Shown: in pieces, positions 9,061 through 17,724 of the stretch
Numbering within the stretch: position 1 is the first letter of the stretch
Layout of the letters: the number at the start of each line of letters is the position of its first letter
Origin: Dendrobates tinctorius
Lineage: Eukaryota
Direction: 5' to 3'
DNA length: 64,000 nucleotides
NCBI RefSeq assembly: GCF_039654945.1
Contig: NW_027361708.1
Coordinates: 6,138,001-6,202,000 of the forward strand
Position numbers and translations under genes: made by a program
Notes under the pieces: model-generated
What the model was told of the DNA's origin: nothing
The model's database searches: none
The model's input: the letters and a program-made list of their open reading frames with translations, nothing else

Positions 9061-9432
9061 CTGACACCTGTTTAAATTGTGCAAACCTTCCTTTCTCTAT
9101 TCTGACAAGTCTGTCCGTCCGTCAGGTCACCTTCCCTACACACTCTCTCTTTCCCCATGTGCTGACTTCTCCCATCTGTGCTCTCTTCTTTGACCGGTCT
9201 ACCCCATGTGCTATCCCCATTGTCTGCTGTCTCTCTCCTTCCTGTGCTGTGCTCTCCCCTCATGTGCTGTCCCATTTGAACTGTCTCCCCCCTGTGCTCT
9301 GTCTGTCTCACCCCTGTGCACTTTCTCTCTCCCCATCTGCTGTCTTCTCCTCTCATGTCATCTATTGTTTGATCTGTGTACCCCATCACTAAACAGTCAG
9401 TGCACAGCATGTCTGGAGGAATTTCTTTTTAA

Positions 9433-9763
9433 ACGGGCTTTCCCATGAACAAAAGTTTATTTTAAAAATTGTTTGTGTCTGACTTTGTATAGAACATACC
9501 ACAGCTCCTGGGCCAGGGAGGAAGCAAAAGACAATACTGACATTACAGCAGGAGATCGCAAAGGATACATTTTGTGAAGTAAAATCTTGTTTAAAAACAG
9601 TCAGTGAATTATTTTACTTCACAAAATGAATCCTCTGTGATCCCCTGCTGTAATGTCAGTATTGTCTTTTGCTTCCTCCCCTGCCCAGGAGATGTGGTAT
9701 GCTCCATACACGATCAGACACAGACAATTTTTAAAATGAACTTTCGTTCGTGGGAAAACCCCT
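9433..9763. mobile_element. TTAA-flanked palindromic MITE (T2/Kolobok type)
   Basis: TTAA at 9429-32 and 9764-67. A(C/G)GGG..CCCCT ends; the two halves are inverted copies. Confidence 0.85.
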
Positions 9764-9883
9764 TTAATGTGACGACTTCCTCTGCCTGTAGACACGTGGC
9801 GCATCTGCCGCCGGGATCAGCCGAATGATTCACTGCGCCTGCGTGGAATTCGCTCAGGCGCAGTGCGACGGTGTTCCGCTGGT

Positions 9884-11870
9884 AAGGCCAGTAAGCTTAA
9901 CATCTGTTGTGGGTAAAATTTTTGAAGGGTTTCTAAGGGATACCATTATGGAATATCTCAATGTTAATAAATGTTTAACTCCATATCAACATGGATTTAT
10001 GAAGGATCGCTCCTGTCAAACTAACCTGATCAACTTCTATGAGGATGTAAGCTCTCAAATGGACCAAGGAGAATCATTGGATGTTATTTATCTCAACTTC
10101 TCTAAAGCATTTGACACTGTCCCACATAAAAGATTGGTAAGTAAGATGAGAAAGCTTGGGCTAGGGGAAAATGTGTGTAGATGGGTACGTAGCTGGCTTA
10201 GTGATAGAAAACAAAGAGTGGTTATTAATGGGGCATACTCAGATTGGGCCAGGGTTACTAGTGGGGCACCACAGGGTTCTGTATTGGGCCCCCTACTATT
10301 TAATATATTTATTAATGATCTAGTGGATGGCTTACACAGTAAAATATCAGTATTTGCAGATGATACAAAACTATGTGAGGTAGTTAACACAAAGGAGGAC
10401 AGTTTGCAACTACAGACAGATTTGAGTAAATTGGAGAATTGGGCTGAAAAATGGCAAATGAGGTTTAACACAGATAAGTGTAAGGTTATGCACATGGGAA
10501 GGAGAAACAGATGCTATAATTACTTACTAAGGCCGGTTTCACATTAGCGCTTTTTAAGCGCACGCACGGCCGGGGGTAGCTCCGCCCCCGAGCCGGCTCT
10601 CTGCCCGGCGTGCCCGCCCCTTGCTTGTAGCGCCGCCTCCTATCGCACAGCGGCGCCTGCGATCGGCGCACCCTATCTTTAGCATAGGGTGCGCAGATCG
10701 TGCGCAGGCCGTGCGCTAGTTGCGCTTTGACCTGCGCTGCGCACTTTTGACGGTGCGCCGTGCGCGCCAAAATCAAACTTTTCGGATTTTGGCACGCACG
10801 GCGCACCGTCAAAAGTGCGCAGCGCAGGTCAAAGCGCAACTAGCGCACGGCCTGCGCACGATCTGCGCACCCTATGCTAAAGATAGGGTGCGCCGATCGC
10901 AGGCGCCGCTGTGCGATAGGAGGCGGCGCTACAAGCAAGGGGCGGGCACGCCGGGCAGAGAGCCGGCTCGGGGGCGGAGCTACCCCCGGCCATGCGTGCG
11001 CTTAAAAAGCGCTAATGTGAAACCGGCCTAAATGGGAAACTGCTGGGGAAATCAGACATGGAAAAAGACTTAGGCATCTTAGTCAATAAGAAGCTAAATT
11101 GGAGTGCCCAGTGTCAGGCAGCTGCCACCAAAGCAAATAGGGTCATGGGATGCATTAGAAGAGGTCTGGGGACACGAGATGAAAACATAATTCTCCCTCT
11201 GTACAAATCACTCGTCAGACCACACTTGGAGTATTGTGTGCAATTTTGGACGTCGATGCTTAAGAAAGACGTTACTGAACTTGAAAGGTTAAAAGGCGGG
11301 CTACTAAAATGATAAATGGAGTTGGTTCACTACAATACCCAGAAAGGTTATCAAAATTAGGTCTATTTACTCTAGAAAAGAGAAGACTTAGGGAAGACTA
11401 TATATATGTACAAGTATATCAGAGGGCAATACAGAGATCTCTCCAGTGAACTGTTTGTACCAAGGACTGTGACAAGAACAAGGGGGCATTCTCTTTGTTT
11501 GGAGGAAAGACAATTTCTGCACCAGCATAGAAGAGGGTTCTTCACGGTAAGAGCAGTGAGGCTCTGGAATTCTCTTCCTGAGAAAGTCGTGATGGCCAAC
11601 TCACTGAATGAATTTAAGAAAGGAATGGATGCTTTTCTTGTGAGTAACAGTATAGAAGGTTACAAATAACAGAATATTATAGGTAGATGGTTGACCCAGC
11701 TTAGGGGAAGGATTTCTTTTCCCTATGGAGAAAATTGGCTTCTACTCTGTGGGTTTTTTGCCTTCCCCAAGATCAACAATGCAGAACAGCTGCACTAAAA
11801 ATAGGCTGAACTAGATGGACATAAGGTCTTCCTTCAGCCTTCAAAACTATGTTACTATATTACTATGTTG
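9884..11870 (+). mobile_element. CR1-clade LINE, 5'-truncated ORF2 (RT), interrupted by a MITE
   Basis: [61 protein letters not shown] motifs. (ACTATGTT)-type octamer tail at 11847-11870. Confidence 0.95.
10531..11028. mobile_element. PIF/Harbinger-type palindromic MITE (498 bp) inserted in CR1 ORF2
   Basis: GGCCGGTTTCACA ends, TAA TSD at 10528-30 and 11029-31. Removal restores the CR1 frame YLL-NGKLLGKSDMEKDLG. Confidence 0.94.
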
Positions 11871-12203
11871 CCATGCAAGAGGCTGCGTGATTGTGTGAAG
11901 TGTGAGTGTGTGTGTGTGAGTGTGAGGCGTATAGAGTGTGTGTGTGGTGCGACGGTGTTCCGCTGGTGGTACCGTGCAATAGGTTGGTACCAGCAACAGT
12001 TTCCATATTGAGACACCCATCACATGGGTGTCCCAATATGGCGGCCGGTGAATTTCCTCCGCTTGGAATTCCGTGATACGGTGACATCTGGACAGAACAG
12101 GAAGTGAAAACATTACAAGGCAATTATATAAATAGATGTAATCAGACTGCCCATAAGCAAAGCGCTCATTCATGACATGAAATGATATTTTACAGTTTAT
12201 AGC

Positions 12204-13427
12204 TGTAAGGTAGCGCTCACTGAGTGCGTTGTGGGACACTCACTTGGCTGCGATATTGATGCACACAGGAACACTTTCCACTTAAACAGTCCATGCGGTT
12301 TATTATGCCATCATAAACTGCACCGTAAGCCCTGTAAACTTCACAGGCTTACACATAACCCATCACATTTCTTAGTACACGGCTTTAACACACTGTCATT
12401 AAACACGCTGGACCTCTTTGTCCAGATACCGTGGGCGATCGCTTGCCAAACAATTCATTAGTGTCCATAGAACATCACGGGCACCAACAGTTATATCTGT
12501 TATATATGTCCGGGGTTACCTCGCAGGAGCTCCTGCTCCAGATGCCAACTCTTTGGTAGTCCTCTCTCAGGGAAGCTGCCGAACTGGGTTCACCATCCCG
12601 GACAACGCCTTGCTCACCAGGCCACCTGACAGTCCAGATCCACAGGTGGACAGTAGCTCGCCCAATGCAGTGCCGTCACTGAGTCTGCAAACACACGTGG
12701 CCTGTCTGTGTGCTATTCAGGACATCCGTCCCCACTTTGGAACCGTCCAACACACAGGCCTCACCGGGTGCTATTCAGGGATCCAACCCTCCTCCCAGGG
12801 TCTCCCAACACACCGACCACCAGGTCCAGGGCCTCAGCAGGTGCTATTCAGGACGTCCGTCGCCTCCTGAGTCCGTCCAACACTCACGCCTCACCAGGTC
12901 CAAGGTCGCAGCACGTGCTCCAGGGATCCGATTCTTCTCCCAGAATCTCTCAACACTGACCCTCCAGGACCTTGCACCCTGAACCATTCAGGTACACACT
13001 CTGTCTCCATGTGACCAGACCTCAGGCACATTATATGGTACATAACCACACCCACAGGTGAGGTATGGATCACATGGTCATGATCTCACTACAGGTCCTA
13101 TTCCACACACAGCCACACACATCCAGGCTTTACATTGGGCATTCAGACACATGCCCCTGGGTGGATTTGTAGATGACTGGTTCCACCCATCTCACCAAGT
13201 CACCTGGAAGCTTTCCCTTATACACAGTAACAAACTCTCAGCAGTACCTCTGCTGATCAACACATGTTCCAGCTTCCATCACAAGGCATCCACCCTTGTG
13301 ATACATATCGGCCATTTACAATCCTGCCACTCACCATTTCCCCATCACAATAAAGGAAACGCCTGCATGCATGTCCTGGGAAGCCTTTACAGTGCCCCCT
13401 AGCTGTCACAGGGGTCACTGCATCACA
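12204..13427 (-). repeat. Complete 3' LTR (1224 bp)
   Basis: Starts TGTGATG right after the PPT, ends CCTTACA at the TSD, and contains the polyA signal. Confidence 0.85.
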
Positions 13428-13465
13428 TACCCCCTTCTGTTCAAACTTGTGGGGTTGAACACTTG

Positions 13466-15737
13466 TCACAAATGAGGGCCTCGAGACCGGGCACCAATGT
13501 CCCCTTGCCCTACCAGTCGAGAGGGCCCTCTTAGTCGTCTTTGAGCGTCAGCTCCCGAGATGTAGTCCAACTCTGTCACTGTATCCCTCTCTGTGACCAA
13601 CACATTATCGGATTTTATCCTTTCACGTTTCAGAGTCCGTCTGTTAGGCCTCCCCCGCCCCCAGCAGTCCTTATGTCGGCCTTGAGCTTGGGCCTTTAAG
13701 TCACAGTCCAACTGTGTTACCAGACCCTTGTTAGTCTCCACATTTCTGCCATACGCCCAGTCACCCAACCTTTCTCTCCATGGCTGGCTCTCCTGGTTGG
13801 TATGGTCAGAAGTCCCACGTCCAGTCGAGCTAGCTTGCTGGTCTGAGTCTGACCCATTGTCGCTACGTCCACTACCGGGTCTCCTGCCTATGCTACCAAG
13901 CCCTGAGTTAACAGAGGAGTCACCACCTATAACCCTCTTAGCTTCAGACCGCGTACTGCCAGTTTTCAGAGAAGCCCCTCGTTCCTCCATCTCTTGGGCT
14001 GGAAGCAGTCGCCCTCTTCTTTCCAACACCTGTAGCTGTACTTTAATTTGCATTTTTTCCCGGATCAGCTGCTCTACCTCTCGTAGGTACGTCACTCGAT
14101 ATTCCAGGAGCATTCGGATGTTCCTAAGGCTTTCCACAGAGCCAACAACAATGAATGGAGCCATGTCATCTTCAACAGCTACTTGGATTTCACCAGCAGG
14201 TGGGATCCTCACTCTCTTCACACCGGATCTATTTACCATCTCCTGCATCACCTTTCCAAGTCTTCCAACGACTTTCCCAACCAGATTTCTGGGTACGGGA
14301 ATTAGGTCTTAGACAAAGACCAGCCGACTTTGAGCTTCCCTCGCAAGCTCCAGACGTCGAGCAGCTTTCTTATTACGCAACACTAGTATCTGTTTCATGC
14401 GGAGATATTGTAGGTGTATCTCCTTCAGGACAGACACCCTCTTCTCTGTGTATTCTGTTTCTGCCAGTATCACCAACTGGTCCATCTCTGGTGCCCGGTT
14501 CACACTGTTAGCGTTGGTGGTCAGGAGCCGGAATCTCCAGGAGTGGACCTTCTGTACCGTGGCACTGAGGGGCCCCGGGTGAGCTGCCAGGTGGAACCAA
14601 CCCCTAAACAGAGACCGTTAGGAGCAGGCCCAGGGGTTCAAGTACAACGGTAGCCGGTACCGAGAGGGGCGGTTCAGGATGGACTGGAGTAGGACAGTGG
14701 GACTGAAGTGTAGATGACAGAACAGGGCTAGAACACAGGATACAGAAATGGAGTAAGACTATAGACTGGAACTTGGAGGAACTGAAGTGTAGATGACAGG
14801 ACAGAGTTGGAACACAGGAGACAGGAATAAAAGAGGACAGAAGGACTGGAGCAGAATGGAACTGGAACACGGGAGGCAGGACTGGAGGAGGACGGCTGGA
14901 CTGGAACAGGAACACCGGAGGCAGGACTGGAGTAGGATGGCGGGACTGGAGCAGGATGGAACAGGAACACCGGAGGCCGGACTGGAGTAGGACGGCAGGA
15001 CTGGTGCAGGAATTAACAGGAACACCGGAGACAGGACTGGAGTAGGATGGAACAGGAACACCGGAGGCAGGAGACGGAGGAAACAGGAACACTGGAGCAG
15101 GACTGAGAATAACTGTTAGCGAACACGGAAGACAGGCTGCGAGGCTGCTGCAGGAAACACTGAGGACGGCACCGAGAGACTGCAGAGAGCCCAGGAGGAA
15201 GCAGGGCCCAGTGTGCAAGGTAACACAACGATCAGGTGCCTCCCTCAGGGGGAAGTGGCCTGATATGGCCCCTTCTTGTCTGCCATTGGTCCAAAGGTGC
15301 TTCCGGGTCAGGGCACAGCCGGAGCACAAGAAGCAGAAGGGAGGCGCGGCCTATGGCGCATGCGGATTGCATGCAGAGATTGCGTCAGCCGCGAGCCTGT
15401 CAGAGGTGACCGCCGTGGTCGTCGGTTGGCGAGAGGCTGCGGCGTGGGAGCGGAGGCCGGATGAGTATGCAAAGACGGCGTGGGAGCGGAGGCCGGGTGA
15501 GTATGTTGGAGCGGTGTAACACACACTATAGGCCTTTAATGACTTTTTAAAGGCCTCATGCACACCCTCACTGGCACATGCTTCTTGCACGTCTTCGGGT
15601 ACCTCCATCATGCATTTAAAGCACAAAGCCTCACTCTCTTCATAAACAGACAGCTCCTGGTTTACCATGGCAACTTCCCTCAAGACATCTGCCCCGACTG
15701 GGTGACTGTCTTGTTCAGCTTTTGGCTCACAATCCAT
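13466..15737 (-). pseudogene. Intronless FMR1/FXR1/FXR2-family-derived ORF (KH0 + KH2 + low-complexity tail; ~416 codons once the solo LTR is removed; one internal stop)
   Basis: [159 protein letters not shown] aligns with recalled FXR1 [46 protein letters not shown] / [74 protein letters not shown]. Confidence 0.9.
14506..15521. mobile_element. Solo LTR (1016 bp) inserted in the FMR1/FXR-like ORF
   Basis: TGTTA...TAACA termini and 5-bp TSD CACAC (14501-05, 15522-26). Internal GGACTGGAG-rich minisatellite at ~14680-15110. Confidence 0.9.
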
Positions 15738-16623
15738 TGTCAACTCTTTAGTAGTCCTCTCTCTCAGGGAAGCTGCCGAACTGGGATCACCATCCAAGAC
15801 AATGCCTTGCTCCCCAGGCCACCTGACAGTCCAGATCCACAGGCGGACAGTAGCTCCCCCAATGCAGTGCCGTCACTGAGTCTGCAAACACACTTGGTCT
15901 GTCTGGGTGCTATTCAGGACGTCCGTCCCCACTTTGGAACCGTCCAACACACAGGCCTCACCAGGTGCTATTCAGGGATCCAACCCTCCTCCCAGGGTCT
16001 CCAAACACACCGGCCACCAGGTCAAGGGCCTCAGCGGGTGCTATTCAGGATGTCCGTCCCCTCCTGAGACCATCCGACACTCATGCCTCACCAGGTCCAA
16101 GGTCCAGCACGTGCACCAGGGATCTGATTCTTCTCCCAGAATCTCCCTACACTGACCCTCCAGGACCTTGCACCCTGAACCATTCAGGTACACACTCTCT
16201 CGCCATGTGACCAGACCTCAGGCACATTATATGGTACATAACCACACCCACAGGTGAGGTATGGATCACATGGTCATGACCTCACTACAGGTCCTATTCC
16301 ACACACAGCCACACACATACAGGCTTTACATTGGGCATTCAGACACATGCCCCTGGGTGGATTTGTAGATGTCTGGTCCCATCCATCTCACCAAGTCACC
16401 TGGAGGCTTTCCCTTATACACAGTAACAAATCCTCAGCAGTACCTCTGCTGATCAATACACGTTCCAGCTTCCATCACAAGGCACCCACCCTTGTGATAC
16501 ATATCGGCCATTTACAATCCTGCCGCTCACCATTTCCCCATCACAATAAAGGAAACACCTGCATGCATGTCCTGGGAAGCCCATACAGTGCCCCCTAGCT
16601 GTCACAGTGGTCACTGCATCACA
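15738..16623 (-). repeat. 5' LTR, lacking its last ~340 bp and the PBS
   Basis: Colinear with 12543-13427; similarity stops at ~15738-15741. Confidence 0.85.
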
Positions 16624-17724
16624 TAGCATAATAGATCATCCTTCTCCTCCTGTGTAAACAGGAGTCACACTACTGAGAACAATGACCGGCTATAGGCTCT
16701 GACTAATTACAGATTCCTCAGTGACCACTGATCGGTGAAAGTTTATCAATCAGGGGTTGTTTAGTGCCCCCAGTCTGTGCATATAAATGTATCCTAACGC
16801 TTTATTCACACATCAGTATTATGTGTTTTTCCCATCCATCAGTATGAGTGACATCTGCAGTAAAAATGTTGAAAGAATTGGCATGTTGCAAATTAAGTTC
16901 TGCTCATTCACTATGCTCGTATTAGGAAATTCTTCCTTTTTTGTGACAAATGTGCACAAAGAAAGCAAAACAAAAATCGCGACATTCGTATCCGCAATAT
17001 GTATAATTTAAAAAGGAAAAAAAGTTTAAAAAAATTACTGTATTGCAGGGAAGCATCTATCATATCTGATGAAAAATTGCAAAAGTCTCCCTACACAAAG
17101 AAGTAAAGACCCTCATACATTGCCAAGCTCTCCTATGTCCTCTATTGGAATAATAGGGAGAATAAAAGAAAATCGGGAGGCTACACCACACAGATTAGAC
17201 TGTTGGTCAATCCTACTGATACTGGCAGGTTTGGCTGATTTTGATCTAATGTGTATTGAGCTTCGATAATAGCAAGGTATGGTTGTGAGTAAATAGTGAT
17301 AGTGGTCCACCGTTTGGATAGGTCATGAAACACCAAAACCTACTGCCCAACCACCCAATGTCAATGTTGGCCAAATGGTTATTCAGCTGACAGTTCTCTC
17401 CCCTTTCCACCCCGTACAAATGCAGGCTCGGCTGAAAGAGAGCTGTGATCTGTTTCCACACACCTCTGGTGACAGAGTATTTCCTACTAGAAATAAATTG
17501 GATGTTTAAAATCAATATTGCACAATTATTTTATGTTGTCAAGCTTTGCAAAACAATTACATTGTCATCAGTGGTGGTCTACCTAAAACTACTTATTAGA
17601 ACATGCAGAAGAGTACAGAAAATAGAGGGGGTTCTTAGACCAAGATCAAAATTGGCCCTCTAATACAGTCAATGCTTTTATCAGTGCCGGTCAGATAGTT
17701 TTATTCCTTTAATTTTTTTTTTAG

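What the first reader, a model, noticed from the sequence alone, without database searches (positions are those of the whole stretch)
12204..16623. LTR retroelement whose only cargo is a diverged Fragile-X-family (FMR1/FXR) RNA-binding protein
Seen: an element with TG..CA ends, a TAGC TSD, a PPT and paired LTRs contains no gag/pol, only an intronless FMR1/FXR-like ORF in the element's sense orientation, ending ~40 bp before the 3' LTR. The protein is far diverged from the normally very conserved vertebrate FXR/FMR1, yet only one stop (TAA at 14309-11, aligned to Glu) and one insertion break ~416 codons, and the two LTRs are still very similar. A neutrally decaying retrocopy this diverged should be full of stops and frameshifts. 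Inference: the ORF evolved under coding constraint as a TE-borne accessory gene. Established: FMRP-family proteins control translation and, in Drosophila, act with Argonaute/PIWI silencing pathways. A TE-encoded version could therefore be an anti-silencing or RNP-trafficking factor. I know of no description of this arrangement but cannot search.
Basis: partly seen in the sequence, partly recalled or inferred. Interest (0 to 1): 0.92.

Follow-up and report, generated by a model that had tools for sequence, protein, structure and literature searches.

The report
Frog retrotransposon carrying captured FXR1 protein
This is a broken old copy of an abundant, recently spreading poison-frog retrotransposon that has no copying enzymes and carries a piece of a host Fragile-X-family gene (likely FXR1) kept under selection, whose protein is predicted to bind the host's own FXR proteins and likely helps the element's RNA escape their control.

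Summary
The element is real, but this copy is a ruin: 5' LTR cut short, primer site and about 2.2 kb of interior lost, plus a stop, a nested insertion and a frameshift. Intact relatives are ~5-kb non-autonomous LTR elements (about 5,000 candidate loci; 31 of 32 young copies have paired LTRs, median 99.6% identical; 0 of 31 hold capsid, integrase or RT). Their one ~900-aa ORF joins a Gmr1 gag-end/protease remnant, a coiled coil, a spliced KH0-KH2-coiled-coil module (likely from FXR1) and the Gmr1 pol tail. An autonomous Gmr1-like Gypsy family shares LTR end, tRNA-Ala primer site and PPT and is the likely helper. Between subfamilies the module has dN/dS 0.33-0.48, against about 1 in the tail and in private mutations. 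KH1's RNA-binding loop was destroyed first and KH1 then deleted; both FXR dimerisation helices stay, and a model pairs them with host FXR1 (0.70, best control 0.00). Relatives occur in Ranitomeya and Anomaloglossus; Hyla holds a separate FMR1-derived module. Ten paper searches found no description. Expression and function are untested.

The parts
12204..16623 (-). Old, internally deleted copy of a non-autonomous Gmr1-derived LTR element
   Evidence: TG..CA ends, TAGC duplication at 12200-12203 and 16624-16627; siblings at 70-93%
12204..13427 (-). 3' LTR, complete, 1224 bp
   Evidence: End CCTTACA recurs in the 30 loci; followed by the primer site in L086 and L067
13428..13440 (-). Polypurine tract
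   Evidence: Sequence; same position as the PPT shared by young copies and helper
13257..13478 (-). ORF tail in the frame beyond the frameshift; derived from the Gmr1 pol C-end and running into the 3' LTR
   Evidence: tblastn to residues 832-896 of an intact copy, E 4e-9; residues 815-872 match the helper ORF end
13469..14030 (-). Low-complexity S/R/G-rich tail, evolving at dN/dS about 1; frameshift near 13475
14031..14308 (-). FXR KH2 domain (GxxG loop kept) and second coiled-coil helix (CC2)
   Evidence: Pfam KH_1 E 5e-5; FMRP KH2 2qnd E 4e-21; motif counts
14309..14311 (-). In-frame stop (TAA)
14312..14500 (-). Second half of FMRP-type KH0 with the CC1 helix, joined directly to KH2 (KH1 absent)
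   Evidence: Pfam KH_9 E 5e-8; 60-residue gap against host paralogs
14506..15521 (.). Nested 1016-bp TG..CA insertion with 5-bp CACAC duplication, likely a solo LTR of an unrelated family
   Evidence: 2944 candidates, 40 scored at 93-100%; full-length match in L183
15522..15737 (-). Linker and first half of KH0; joined to the truncated 5' LTR by the internal deletion
   Evidence: Pfam KH_9 E 1.6e-5; junction against L067
15738..16623 (-). 5' LTR remnant, 886 of 1224 bp
   Evidence: 94.8% identical to 12543-13427

Best explanation
The window holds a dead copy of a non-autonomous Gmr1-like Gypsy element whose single ORF carries a spliced, Tudor-less, KH1-less host module (likely from FXR1) under purifying selection, which is likely copied by an autonomous Gmr1 helper and whose protein likely acts as a decoy or tether that binds host FXR proteins to free the element's RNA from their control. 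Steps: (1, shown) host exons lie intron-free between Gmr1 protease and pol-end sequence in one frame. (2, inferred) They were captured by RT template switching inside a Gmr1 particle. (3, shown) The element keeps LTR end, primer site and PPT in common with autonomous Gmr1 families, old subfamily with an older family and young subfamily with the young one; (inferred) it changed helpers. (4, shown) KH1's GxxG loop was lost before KH1 was deleted, while KH2's loop and both dimerisation helices were kept under selection. (5, predicted) The CC1 helix pairs with host FXR1 CC2. (6, inferred, untested) Mixed dimers lacking Tudor, KH1 and RGG weaken FXR repression or granule sequestration, mostly near the element's own RNA, held through KH2; that would tie the benefit to the coding copy. 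Odds: anatomy and helper dependence about 0.95; selection on the protein about 0.85; decoy or tether on host FXR about 0.5.
For: Copy number: 5452 and 5160 first-look candidates; the 150 scored are all 95% or more identical. Structure: 31 of 32 young copies LTR-paired (96.3-100%, median 99.6), 24 of 31 with exact 4-bp TSD, 20 of 31 with ATG frames of 800 aa or more, 0 of 31 with capsid/IN/RT. Helper: 7 of 14 SCAN loci share 77-89% over about 215-250 bp of LTR end plus primer site; 6 of these are full length with a 20/20 PPT-LTR junction; domain order SCAN-PR-IN-RT-RH; ORF residues 52-233 match its gag-end/protease, E 9e-17. Old LTR end plus primer site is followed by Gmr1 SCAN-gag in 6 of 20 sites. 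Spliced capture: 7 host exons map end to end. Selection: between-subfamily dN/dS 0.33-0.48 in 7 of 7 comparisons, private changes 1.08-1.87, Fisher p 8e-5 to 0.015; window versus young subfamily dS 0.26/dN 0.086 in the module, dS 0.27/dN 0.265 in the tail. KH1 loop destroyed in 5 of 5 old KH1-bearing copies and in both Anomaloglossus proteins. KH2 loop glycines kept in 38 of 41 and 41 of 43 copies; N202-equivalent in 38 of 42. Fold pLDDT 93. Complex: score 0.70, best of 3 controls 0.00; mark reached by 51 of 78 solved and 2 of 108 mismatched pairs (eukaryotes: 39 of 65 and 2 of 126); runs agree in at least 68% of contacts; partner pLDDT at least 77; interface is element CC1 on host CC2. This fits passages of bioRxiv 10.1101/2023.11.05.565677: heteromeric CC1-CC2 binding is needed for FXR1 dimers, and a KH1 mutation breaks the network. 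dFmr1 loss raises transposon RNA in fly ovaries (PMC5454977, passages).
Against: No expression, protein or functional evidence. The complex score is untested for close relatives of a partner and may only echo helix packing shared by the family; the host chain was a Ranitomeya stand-in and the alignments were not used. Predicted interface columns are no more conserved than the rest of KH0 (16 of 23 versus 43 of 70 invariant, p 0.62). dN/dS of 0.3-0.5 is weak constraint; the comparisons share branches, are not corrected for multiple tests, and use copies picked as top hits; by sub-domain, 3 of 7 KH2 and 6 of 7 KH0 comparisons reach p<0.05. Within the young family, shared and private variants do not differ (0.35 versus 0.50, p 0.62). 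FXR1 placement has only 89/85 and 83/50 support, with one full-length FXR1 row and no AU test. A role of FXR proteins in frog transposon control is not shown; the evidence is from Drosophila. A diffusible suppressor is a public good, so the cis link is assumed.
Confidence: 0.5

Rival explanations
1. RNA adaptor without antagonism: the protein binds its own RNA through KH2 and uses FXR granules or transport to bring it to helper particles, without lowering host FXR function.
For: KH2 loop kept and selected; a cis benefit explains selection on a non-autonomous element; the predicted host contact fits this as well.
Against: Early loss of the KH1 loop and later of KH1 removes RNA-binding capacity; no capsid (SCAN) part is left to co-assemble with helper Gag; the protease site reads DSE or ESE in 29 of 29 young copies scored (3 of 32 gave no alignment), so no own protease is likely.
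Confidence: 0.22
2. Passenger: the module is filler, and only an open frame (RNA stability, packaging length) is selected.
For: Linker and tail keep an open frame at dN/dS about 1; young-family variants give no significant signal; LTR-mediated retrocopies that go on retroposing are known (PMC5131818, abstract and Discussion).
Against: Module dN is a third of tail dN at equal dS; motif residues and fold are kept across three genera.
Confidence: 0.13
3. Small-RNA decoy, as in Drosophila TART: antisense piRNAs from the captured piece knock down host FXR1 mRNA.
For: Precedent of nxf2, piwi and aub capture (PMC13534243, section 8 part 1); could have applied soon after capture.
Against: DNA identity to host exons is about 65-83% over short aligned stretches, longest exact match 13 nt, best 26-mer 21 of 26; that paper saw almost no targeting at about 80%; selection acts on amino acids, in sense and in frame.
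Confidence: 0.06
4. Host-domesticated gene family or a few host-useful copies drive the constraint.
For: RefSeq names some copies as FXR1-like or FMR1-homolog genes.
Against: Copies sit at scattered new sites with near-identical LTRs and their own TSDs; old copies decay neutrally after insertion.
Confidence: 0.05

Closest known systems
Gmr1-like (SCAN-bearing) Ty3/Gypsy LTR retrotransposons
   Same: LTR end, tRNA-Ala primer site, PPT, 4-bp TSD, single frame running into the 3' LTR, protease-region and pol-end homology. The helper has the SCAN-PR-IN-RT-RH order given for Gmr1-like elements (bioRxiv 10.1101/2025.03.03.638093, passages).
   Different: The FXR element has no capsid, integrase, RT or RNase H; a coiled coil of unknown origin and a host module stand in their place.
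LTR-mediated retrocopies (Tan et al. 2016, PMC5131818; maize Bs1)
   Same: Partial spliced host mRNA between LTR-element sequence, sense, in frame, able to retropose again.
   Different: Bs1 has 1-5 copies by that paper's Discussion; this family has thousands of candidates, several subfamilies, module-specific constraint, stepwise domain loss and helper change.
Drosophila telomeric TART/TR elements that captured nxf2, piwi or aub (PMC13534243)
   Same: A transposon carries part of a host gene tied to RNA control.
   Different: Those are 140-235-bp pieces of 76-95% identity acting through piRNAs in non-LTR elements; this is a ~200-codon translated-frame module, too diverged for RNA targeting.
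VANC anti-silencing proteins of Arabidopsis VANDAL transposons (PMC6719617, passages)
   Same: An element-borne accessory protein proposed to counter host control; the 2019 review counts only three such cases.
   Different: VANC is on DNA transposons, acts on DNA methylation and has tested function; this protein is host-derived, in a vertebrate, and untested.
Replication-defective acutely transforming retroviruses with gag-onc fusions (recalled, no call)
   Same: Host coding exons replace pol in frame; a helper is needed.
   Different: No env and no retroviral lineage; germ-line spread over long times rather than short-lived somatic selection.
Host FXR1 / FMR1 / FXR2
   Same: KH0, KH2, CC1 and CC2; 52%, 47% and 45% identity over the module.
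   Different: No Tudor pair, no KH1, no RGG box, no introns; I304-equivalent is Met in 40 of 42 copies.

Membership tests
LTR retroelement | Paired TG..CA LTRs, TSD, PPT, primer site | tested here: met
   Window copy: all but the primer site and part of the 5' LTR; young copies 31 of 32 paired, primer site seen in 29 of 31
Autonomous Gmr1-like Gypsy | SCAN capsid, PR, IN before RT-RH | tested here: not met
   0 of 31 FXR elements; met by the helper L125
Non-autonomous Gmr1 derivative | Cis signals shared with an autonomous family in the same genome | tested here: met
Non-autonomous Gmr1 derivative | Coding remnants of Gmr1 Gag-Pol | tested here: met
   E 9e-17 and 2e-21 for gag-end/protease, 3e-4 for the pol end
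Non-autonomous Gmr1 derivative | Mobilisation in trans by the helper | not testable with these tools
   Inferred from shared ends and equally young LTR pairs
Gmr1-type priming | Primer site complementary to a host tRNA 3' end | tested here: met
   TGGAGAATGCGGGCA matches tRNA-Ala(AGC) genes, 4 of 4 loci; most young copies carry a variant site
LTR-mediated retrocopy | Introns absent across several exon junctions | tested here: met
   7 host exons contiguous
LTR-mediated retrocopy | Microsimilarity at the capture junctions | not tested
   Junctions too diverged; not examined
Full FXR-family protein | Tandem Tudor domains, KH1 and RGG box | tested here: not met
   No Tudor/Agenet hit; KH1 gap; RGG box judged absent by eye from the sequence
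Full FXR-family protein | KH0 and KH2 folds with KH2 GxxG, CC1 and CC2 | tested here: met
FXR1 as donor paralog | Nests with FXR1 in a tree | tested here: inconclusive
   Inside the FXR1 group at 89/85, sister to frog FXR1 at 83/50, outside FMR1 (100/100); no AU test
TE-encoded anti-silencing factor | Expression relieves host repression of the element | not testable with these tools
   No functional data
TART-type piRNA decoy | About 90% DNA identity to the host mRNA | tested here: not met
   About 65-83%, longest exact match 13 nt

The most novel reading that the evidence does not exclude
A vertebrate retrotransposon has turned a stolen host translation regulator into a dominant-negative counter-defence protein: it stripped FXR1 to its dimerisation core, has kept it under selection since before the Dendrobates-Ranitomeya-Anomaloglossus split while hopping between helper elements, and tree frogs (Hyla) did the same independently with FMR1, which would expose FXR proteins as a real barrier to retrotransposons in vertebrate germ lines.
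Probability: 0.35. Interest if true: 0.95.

Novelty: new variant of a known kind. Interest (0 to 1): 0.86.

Why it matters
Protein-level counter-defence by animal transposons is barely known (a 2019 review lists three cases of active escape, and the ones seen in its passages are from plants). Here a host RNA regulator has been captured, trimmed in steps and kept under selection by a family that is still spreading in a 6.4-Gb frog genome. It makes testable whether Fragile-X-family proteins restrain retrotransposons in vertebrates, offers a natural dimerisation-only FXR variant, and explains a crowd of 'FXR1-like' gene models in poison-frog annotations as transposon copies.

Tried and rejected
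Expression: no RNA holder listed; contigs of 4 runs of unrecorded type cover all 30 bins but show no splice joint and cannot show transcription. Origin of the coiled coil (residues about 290-430): no Pfam family over cut-off, Atlas leads only, best 0.90, unnamed. Atlas on the protease-like part gave nothing; it was identified by direct comparison with the helper. A homolog search with that part returned only 2 proteins. A cold-shock-domain reading of the N-terminus was dropped. A retropepsin remnant in Hyla P0057, suspected by eye, got no support (Pfam none; best E 0.37). A second SCAN family (7 of 14 loci) shares nothing with the element. Extra conservation of interface residues: not found. 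Earlier scan notes: none. Papers: 10 searches showed no description of this element in their listings; a Dendrobates tinctorius genome preprint, a frog LTR survey (PMC4131045) and a vertebrate retrocopy preprint have no FXR or FMR word where searched (one search searched FMR only). Preprint supplements, Repbase/Dfam and subscription journals could not be seen and may hold an entry.
Full report
Observation. The element lies on the minus strand at 12204-16623 with TG..CA ends and a TAGC duplication. The 3' LTR is 1224 bp; the 5' copy matches only 886 bp of it (94.8%, K2P 0.054). Against sibling L067, which keeps its primer site, the window copy has lost the inner end of the 5' LTR, the primer site and about 2.2 kb of interior. 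Pfam finds FMRP KH0 on both sides of a nested 1016-bp insertion, then a KH domain and a weak FXR C-core. There is a stop at 14309-11 and a frameshift near 13475 not shared by the 15 siblings that align across it. The copy is dead: it differs by 5.2% from its subfamily's commonest codons (20 nonsynonymous, 10 synonymous changes).

The family. The own genome (6.36 Gb) gives 5452 candidates for the KH2 piece and 5160 for KH0; only 150 are scored each time, so these are rough. 105 of 150 top hits to the N-terminal part lie in open frames of 800 codons or more. I examined 32 young copies: 12 of the 13 fetched earlier (L057 lacked its 5' LTR in the stretch) and 20 taken down the list regardless of frame length. 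31 have paired LTRs (96.3-100%, median 99.6; one pair is a tandem), 24 of 31 an exact 4-bp TSD, 20 of 31 an ATG frame of 800 aa or more, and none has capsid, integrase or RT. A typical copy is 5 kb with one 901-aa frame that ends inside the 3' LTR. Proteins 93-97% identical are annotated in Dendrobates tinctorius, and relatives at 57-65% in Ranitomeya imitator and R. variabilis.

The helper. A SCAN search found an abundant young family with 1433-codon frames, ordered SCAN-PR-IN-RT-RH, the Gmr1-like order (bioRxiv 10.1101/2025.03.03.638093, passages). Of 14 SCAN loci fetched, 7 share the last ~215 bp of the LTR and the primer site with the young FXR element at 77-89%, 6 of them full length with an identical 20-bp PPT-LTR junction; the other 7 are an unrelated family; none holds the FXR module. 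The FXR frame matches the helper at residues 52-233 (gag end and protease, E 9e-17) and 815-872 (pol end, E 3e-4). The primer site complements tRNA-Ala(AGC). The window's older LTR does not match the young helper, but its end plus primer site occurs 116 times; of 20 sites chosen away from known protease-remnant hits, 6 lead into Gmr1 SCAN-gag, 10 into FXR-element coding sequence, 2 match its leader only and 2 nothing. The element thus likely changed LTR ends to follow a new helper. The protease motif reads DSG in the helper and many old copies, and DSE or ESE in 29 of 29 young copies scored.

The cargo. The genome has three intron-bearing paralog loci and five old intron-free copies that keep KH1; two of the five have the protease remnant and N-terminal repeats upstream. 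Seven exons of the host gene map end to end in the element. The reference protein P0011 scores best with FXR1 structures in its Tudor and KH1 parts. In a 33-row tree the 11 element rows form one group (100/100), join two Anomaloglossus proteins (99/98) and fall inside the FXR1 group (89/85; sister to frog FXR1 83/50); one outgroup row was misplaced and no AU test was run. The KH1 GxxG loop is destroyed in 5 of 5 old copies and both Anomaloglossus proteins, and KH1 (60 residues) is missing from the expanded lineage. Three Hyla sarda proteins carry a Tudor-less module that groups with FMR1 (100/100); their genomic setting could not be seen.

Selection. Using 43 copies in five main subfamilies and column-wise counts, the 200-codon module has dN/dS 0.33-0.48 in all 7 between-subfamily comparisons, against 1.08 and 1.87 for private changes in old copies (Fisher p 8e-5 to 0.015). 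The tail gives 0.57-1.17 and the linker 0.79-3.9 with no significant contrast; the coiled coil 0.43-1.01, not significant. Between the window and young subfamilies dS is 0.26 in the module and 0.27 in the tail, dN 0.086 and 0.265. KH0, which was not in the query that picked the copies, gives 0.31-0.54. Limits: comparisons share branches, copies were top hits, the C-core is saturated in comparisons with the young subfamily, and within the young family shared and private variants do not differ (p 0.62).

Mechanism. The module folds as KH0, a long helix, KH2 and a second helix (pLDDT 93). These helices correspond to CC1 and CC2, whose heteromeric pairing is needed for FXR1 dimers and networks, while KH1 or KH2 point mutations break the network (bioRxiv 10.1101/2023.11.05.565677, passages). 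A complex model puts element CC1 on host FXR1 CC2: score 0.70, best control 0.00; the mark was reached by 51 of 78 solved and 2 of 108 mismatched pairs (eukaryotes 39 of 65 and 2 of 126); contact agreement at least 68%, partner pLDDT at least 77. No PDB chain hit spans both helices in full, but close relatives of a partner are untested, so this supports binding and does not show it. Interface columns are not extra conserved. In flies, loss of dFmr1 raises transposon RNA (PMC5454977, passages). I infer a decoy or tether: mixed dimers lacking Tudor, KH1 and RGG that loosen FXR control of the element's RNA, linked in cis through KH2. An adaptor without antagonism is the main rival. A piRNA decoy is unlikely today, since DNA identity to the host is about 65-83% with no exact match over 13 nt, and targeting was nearly absent at about 80% in Drosophila (PMC13534243, abstract and section 8 part 1).

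Comparison and novelty. The route is known: LTR-mediated retroposition (PMC5131818, abstract and Discussion). Counter-defence proteins of transposons are rare (PMC6719617, passages). Ten searches listed no description of this family (see Tried and rejected); databases of repeats and preprint supplements were out of reach. I rate it a new variant of a known kind, with high interest, because a long-lived, high-copy, still young vertebrate LTR family keeps a trimmed host regulator under protein-level selection. Expression and function are untested.

Noticed in passing
P0034, P0057, P0181 (Hyla sarda proteins): Tudor-less KH0-KH1-KH2 modules derived from FMR1, about 70% identical to frog FMR1, on at least two chromosomes; P0057 has a long coiled coil upstream. 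Possibly an independent capture; context not visible.
   Followed up: partly
P0013, P0016 (Anomaloglossus baeobatrachus proteins): FXR1-like modules starting at KH0 with the KH1 GxxG loop destroyed; sister to the element proteins in the tree (99/98).
   Followed up: partly
L051-L064, L123-L134, L154-L173, primer sites: Most young FXR copies read TGGTGACAGACTGC and most helper copies TGGTGGTACACGTGC in place of the perfect tRNA-Ala complement; each variant is shared by many young copies, which is odd if the primer site is recopied from the tRNA each cycle.
   Followed up: no
G000:C23:777,500-787,000 and G000:C35:58,957,000-58,962,000: Head-to-tail tandem copies; the C23 pair shares one LTR (99.8% identical over 5 kb).
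   Followed up: no
L135 1283-4316 (also L128-L132, L136): A second SCAN family: about 3-kb LTR element with a gag-only frame (SCAN plus zinc knuckle), apparently another non-autonomous type.
   Followed up: no
G000:C250:10,383,000-10,680,000 and beyond: A tandem array at about 2.3-kb spacing matching the tRNA-Ala 3' motif; most of the 100 listed places of 640 matches lie here.
   Followed up: no
window 10530-11029 and 9429-9767: Long inverted repeats (245-bp arms, 99%; 157-bp arms, 89%), MITE-like.
   Followed up: no
window 11016-11669: Frameshifted fragments resembling the C-terminal end of a CR1-type LINE ORF2 (recalled likeness, no call).
   Followed up: no
P0039 residues about 200-460: Some copies carry two protease-like remnants in tandem.
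   Followed up: no
bioRxiv 10.64898/2026.06.26.734816, one passage: PIWIL2 and DND1 rank among the most retrocopied genes in amphibians; some of these may also ride on LTR elements.
   Followed up: no
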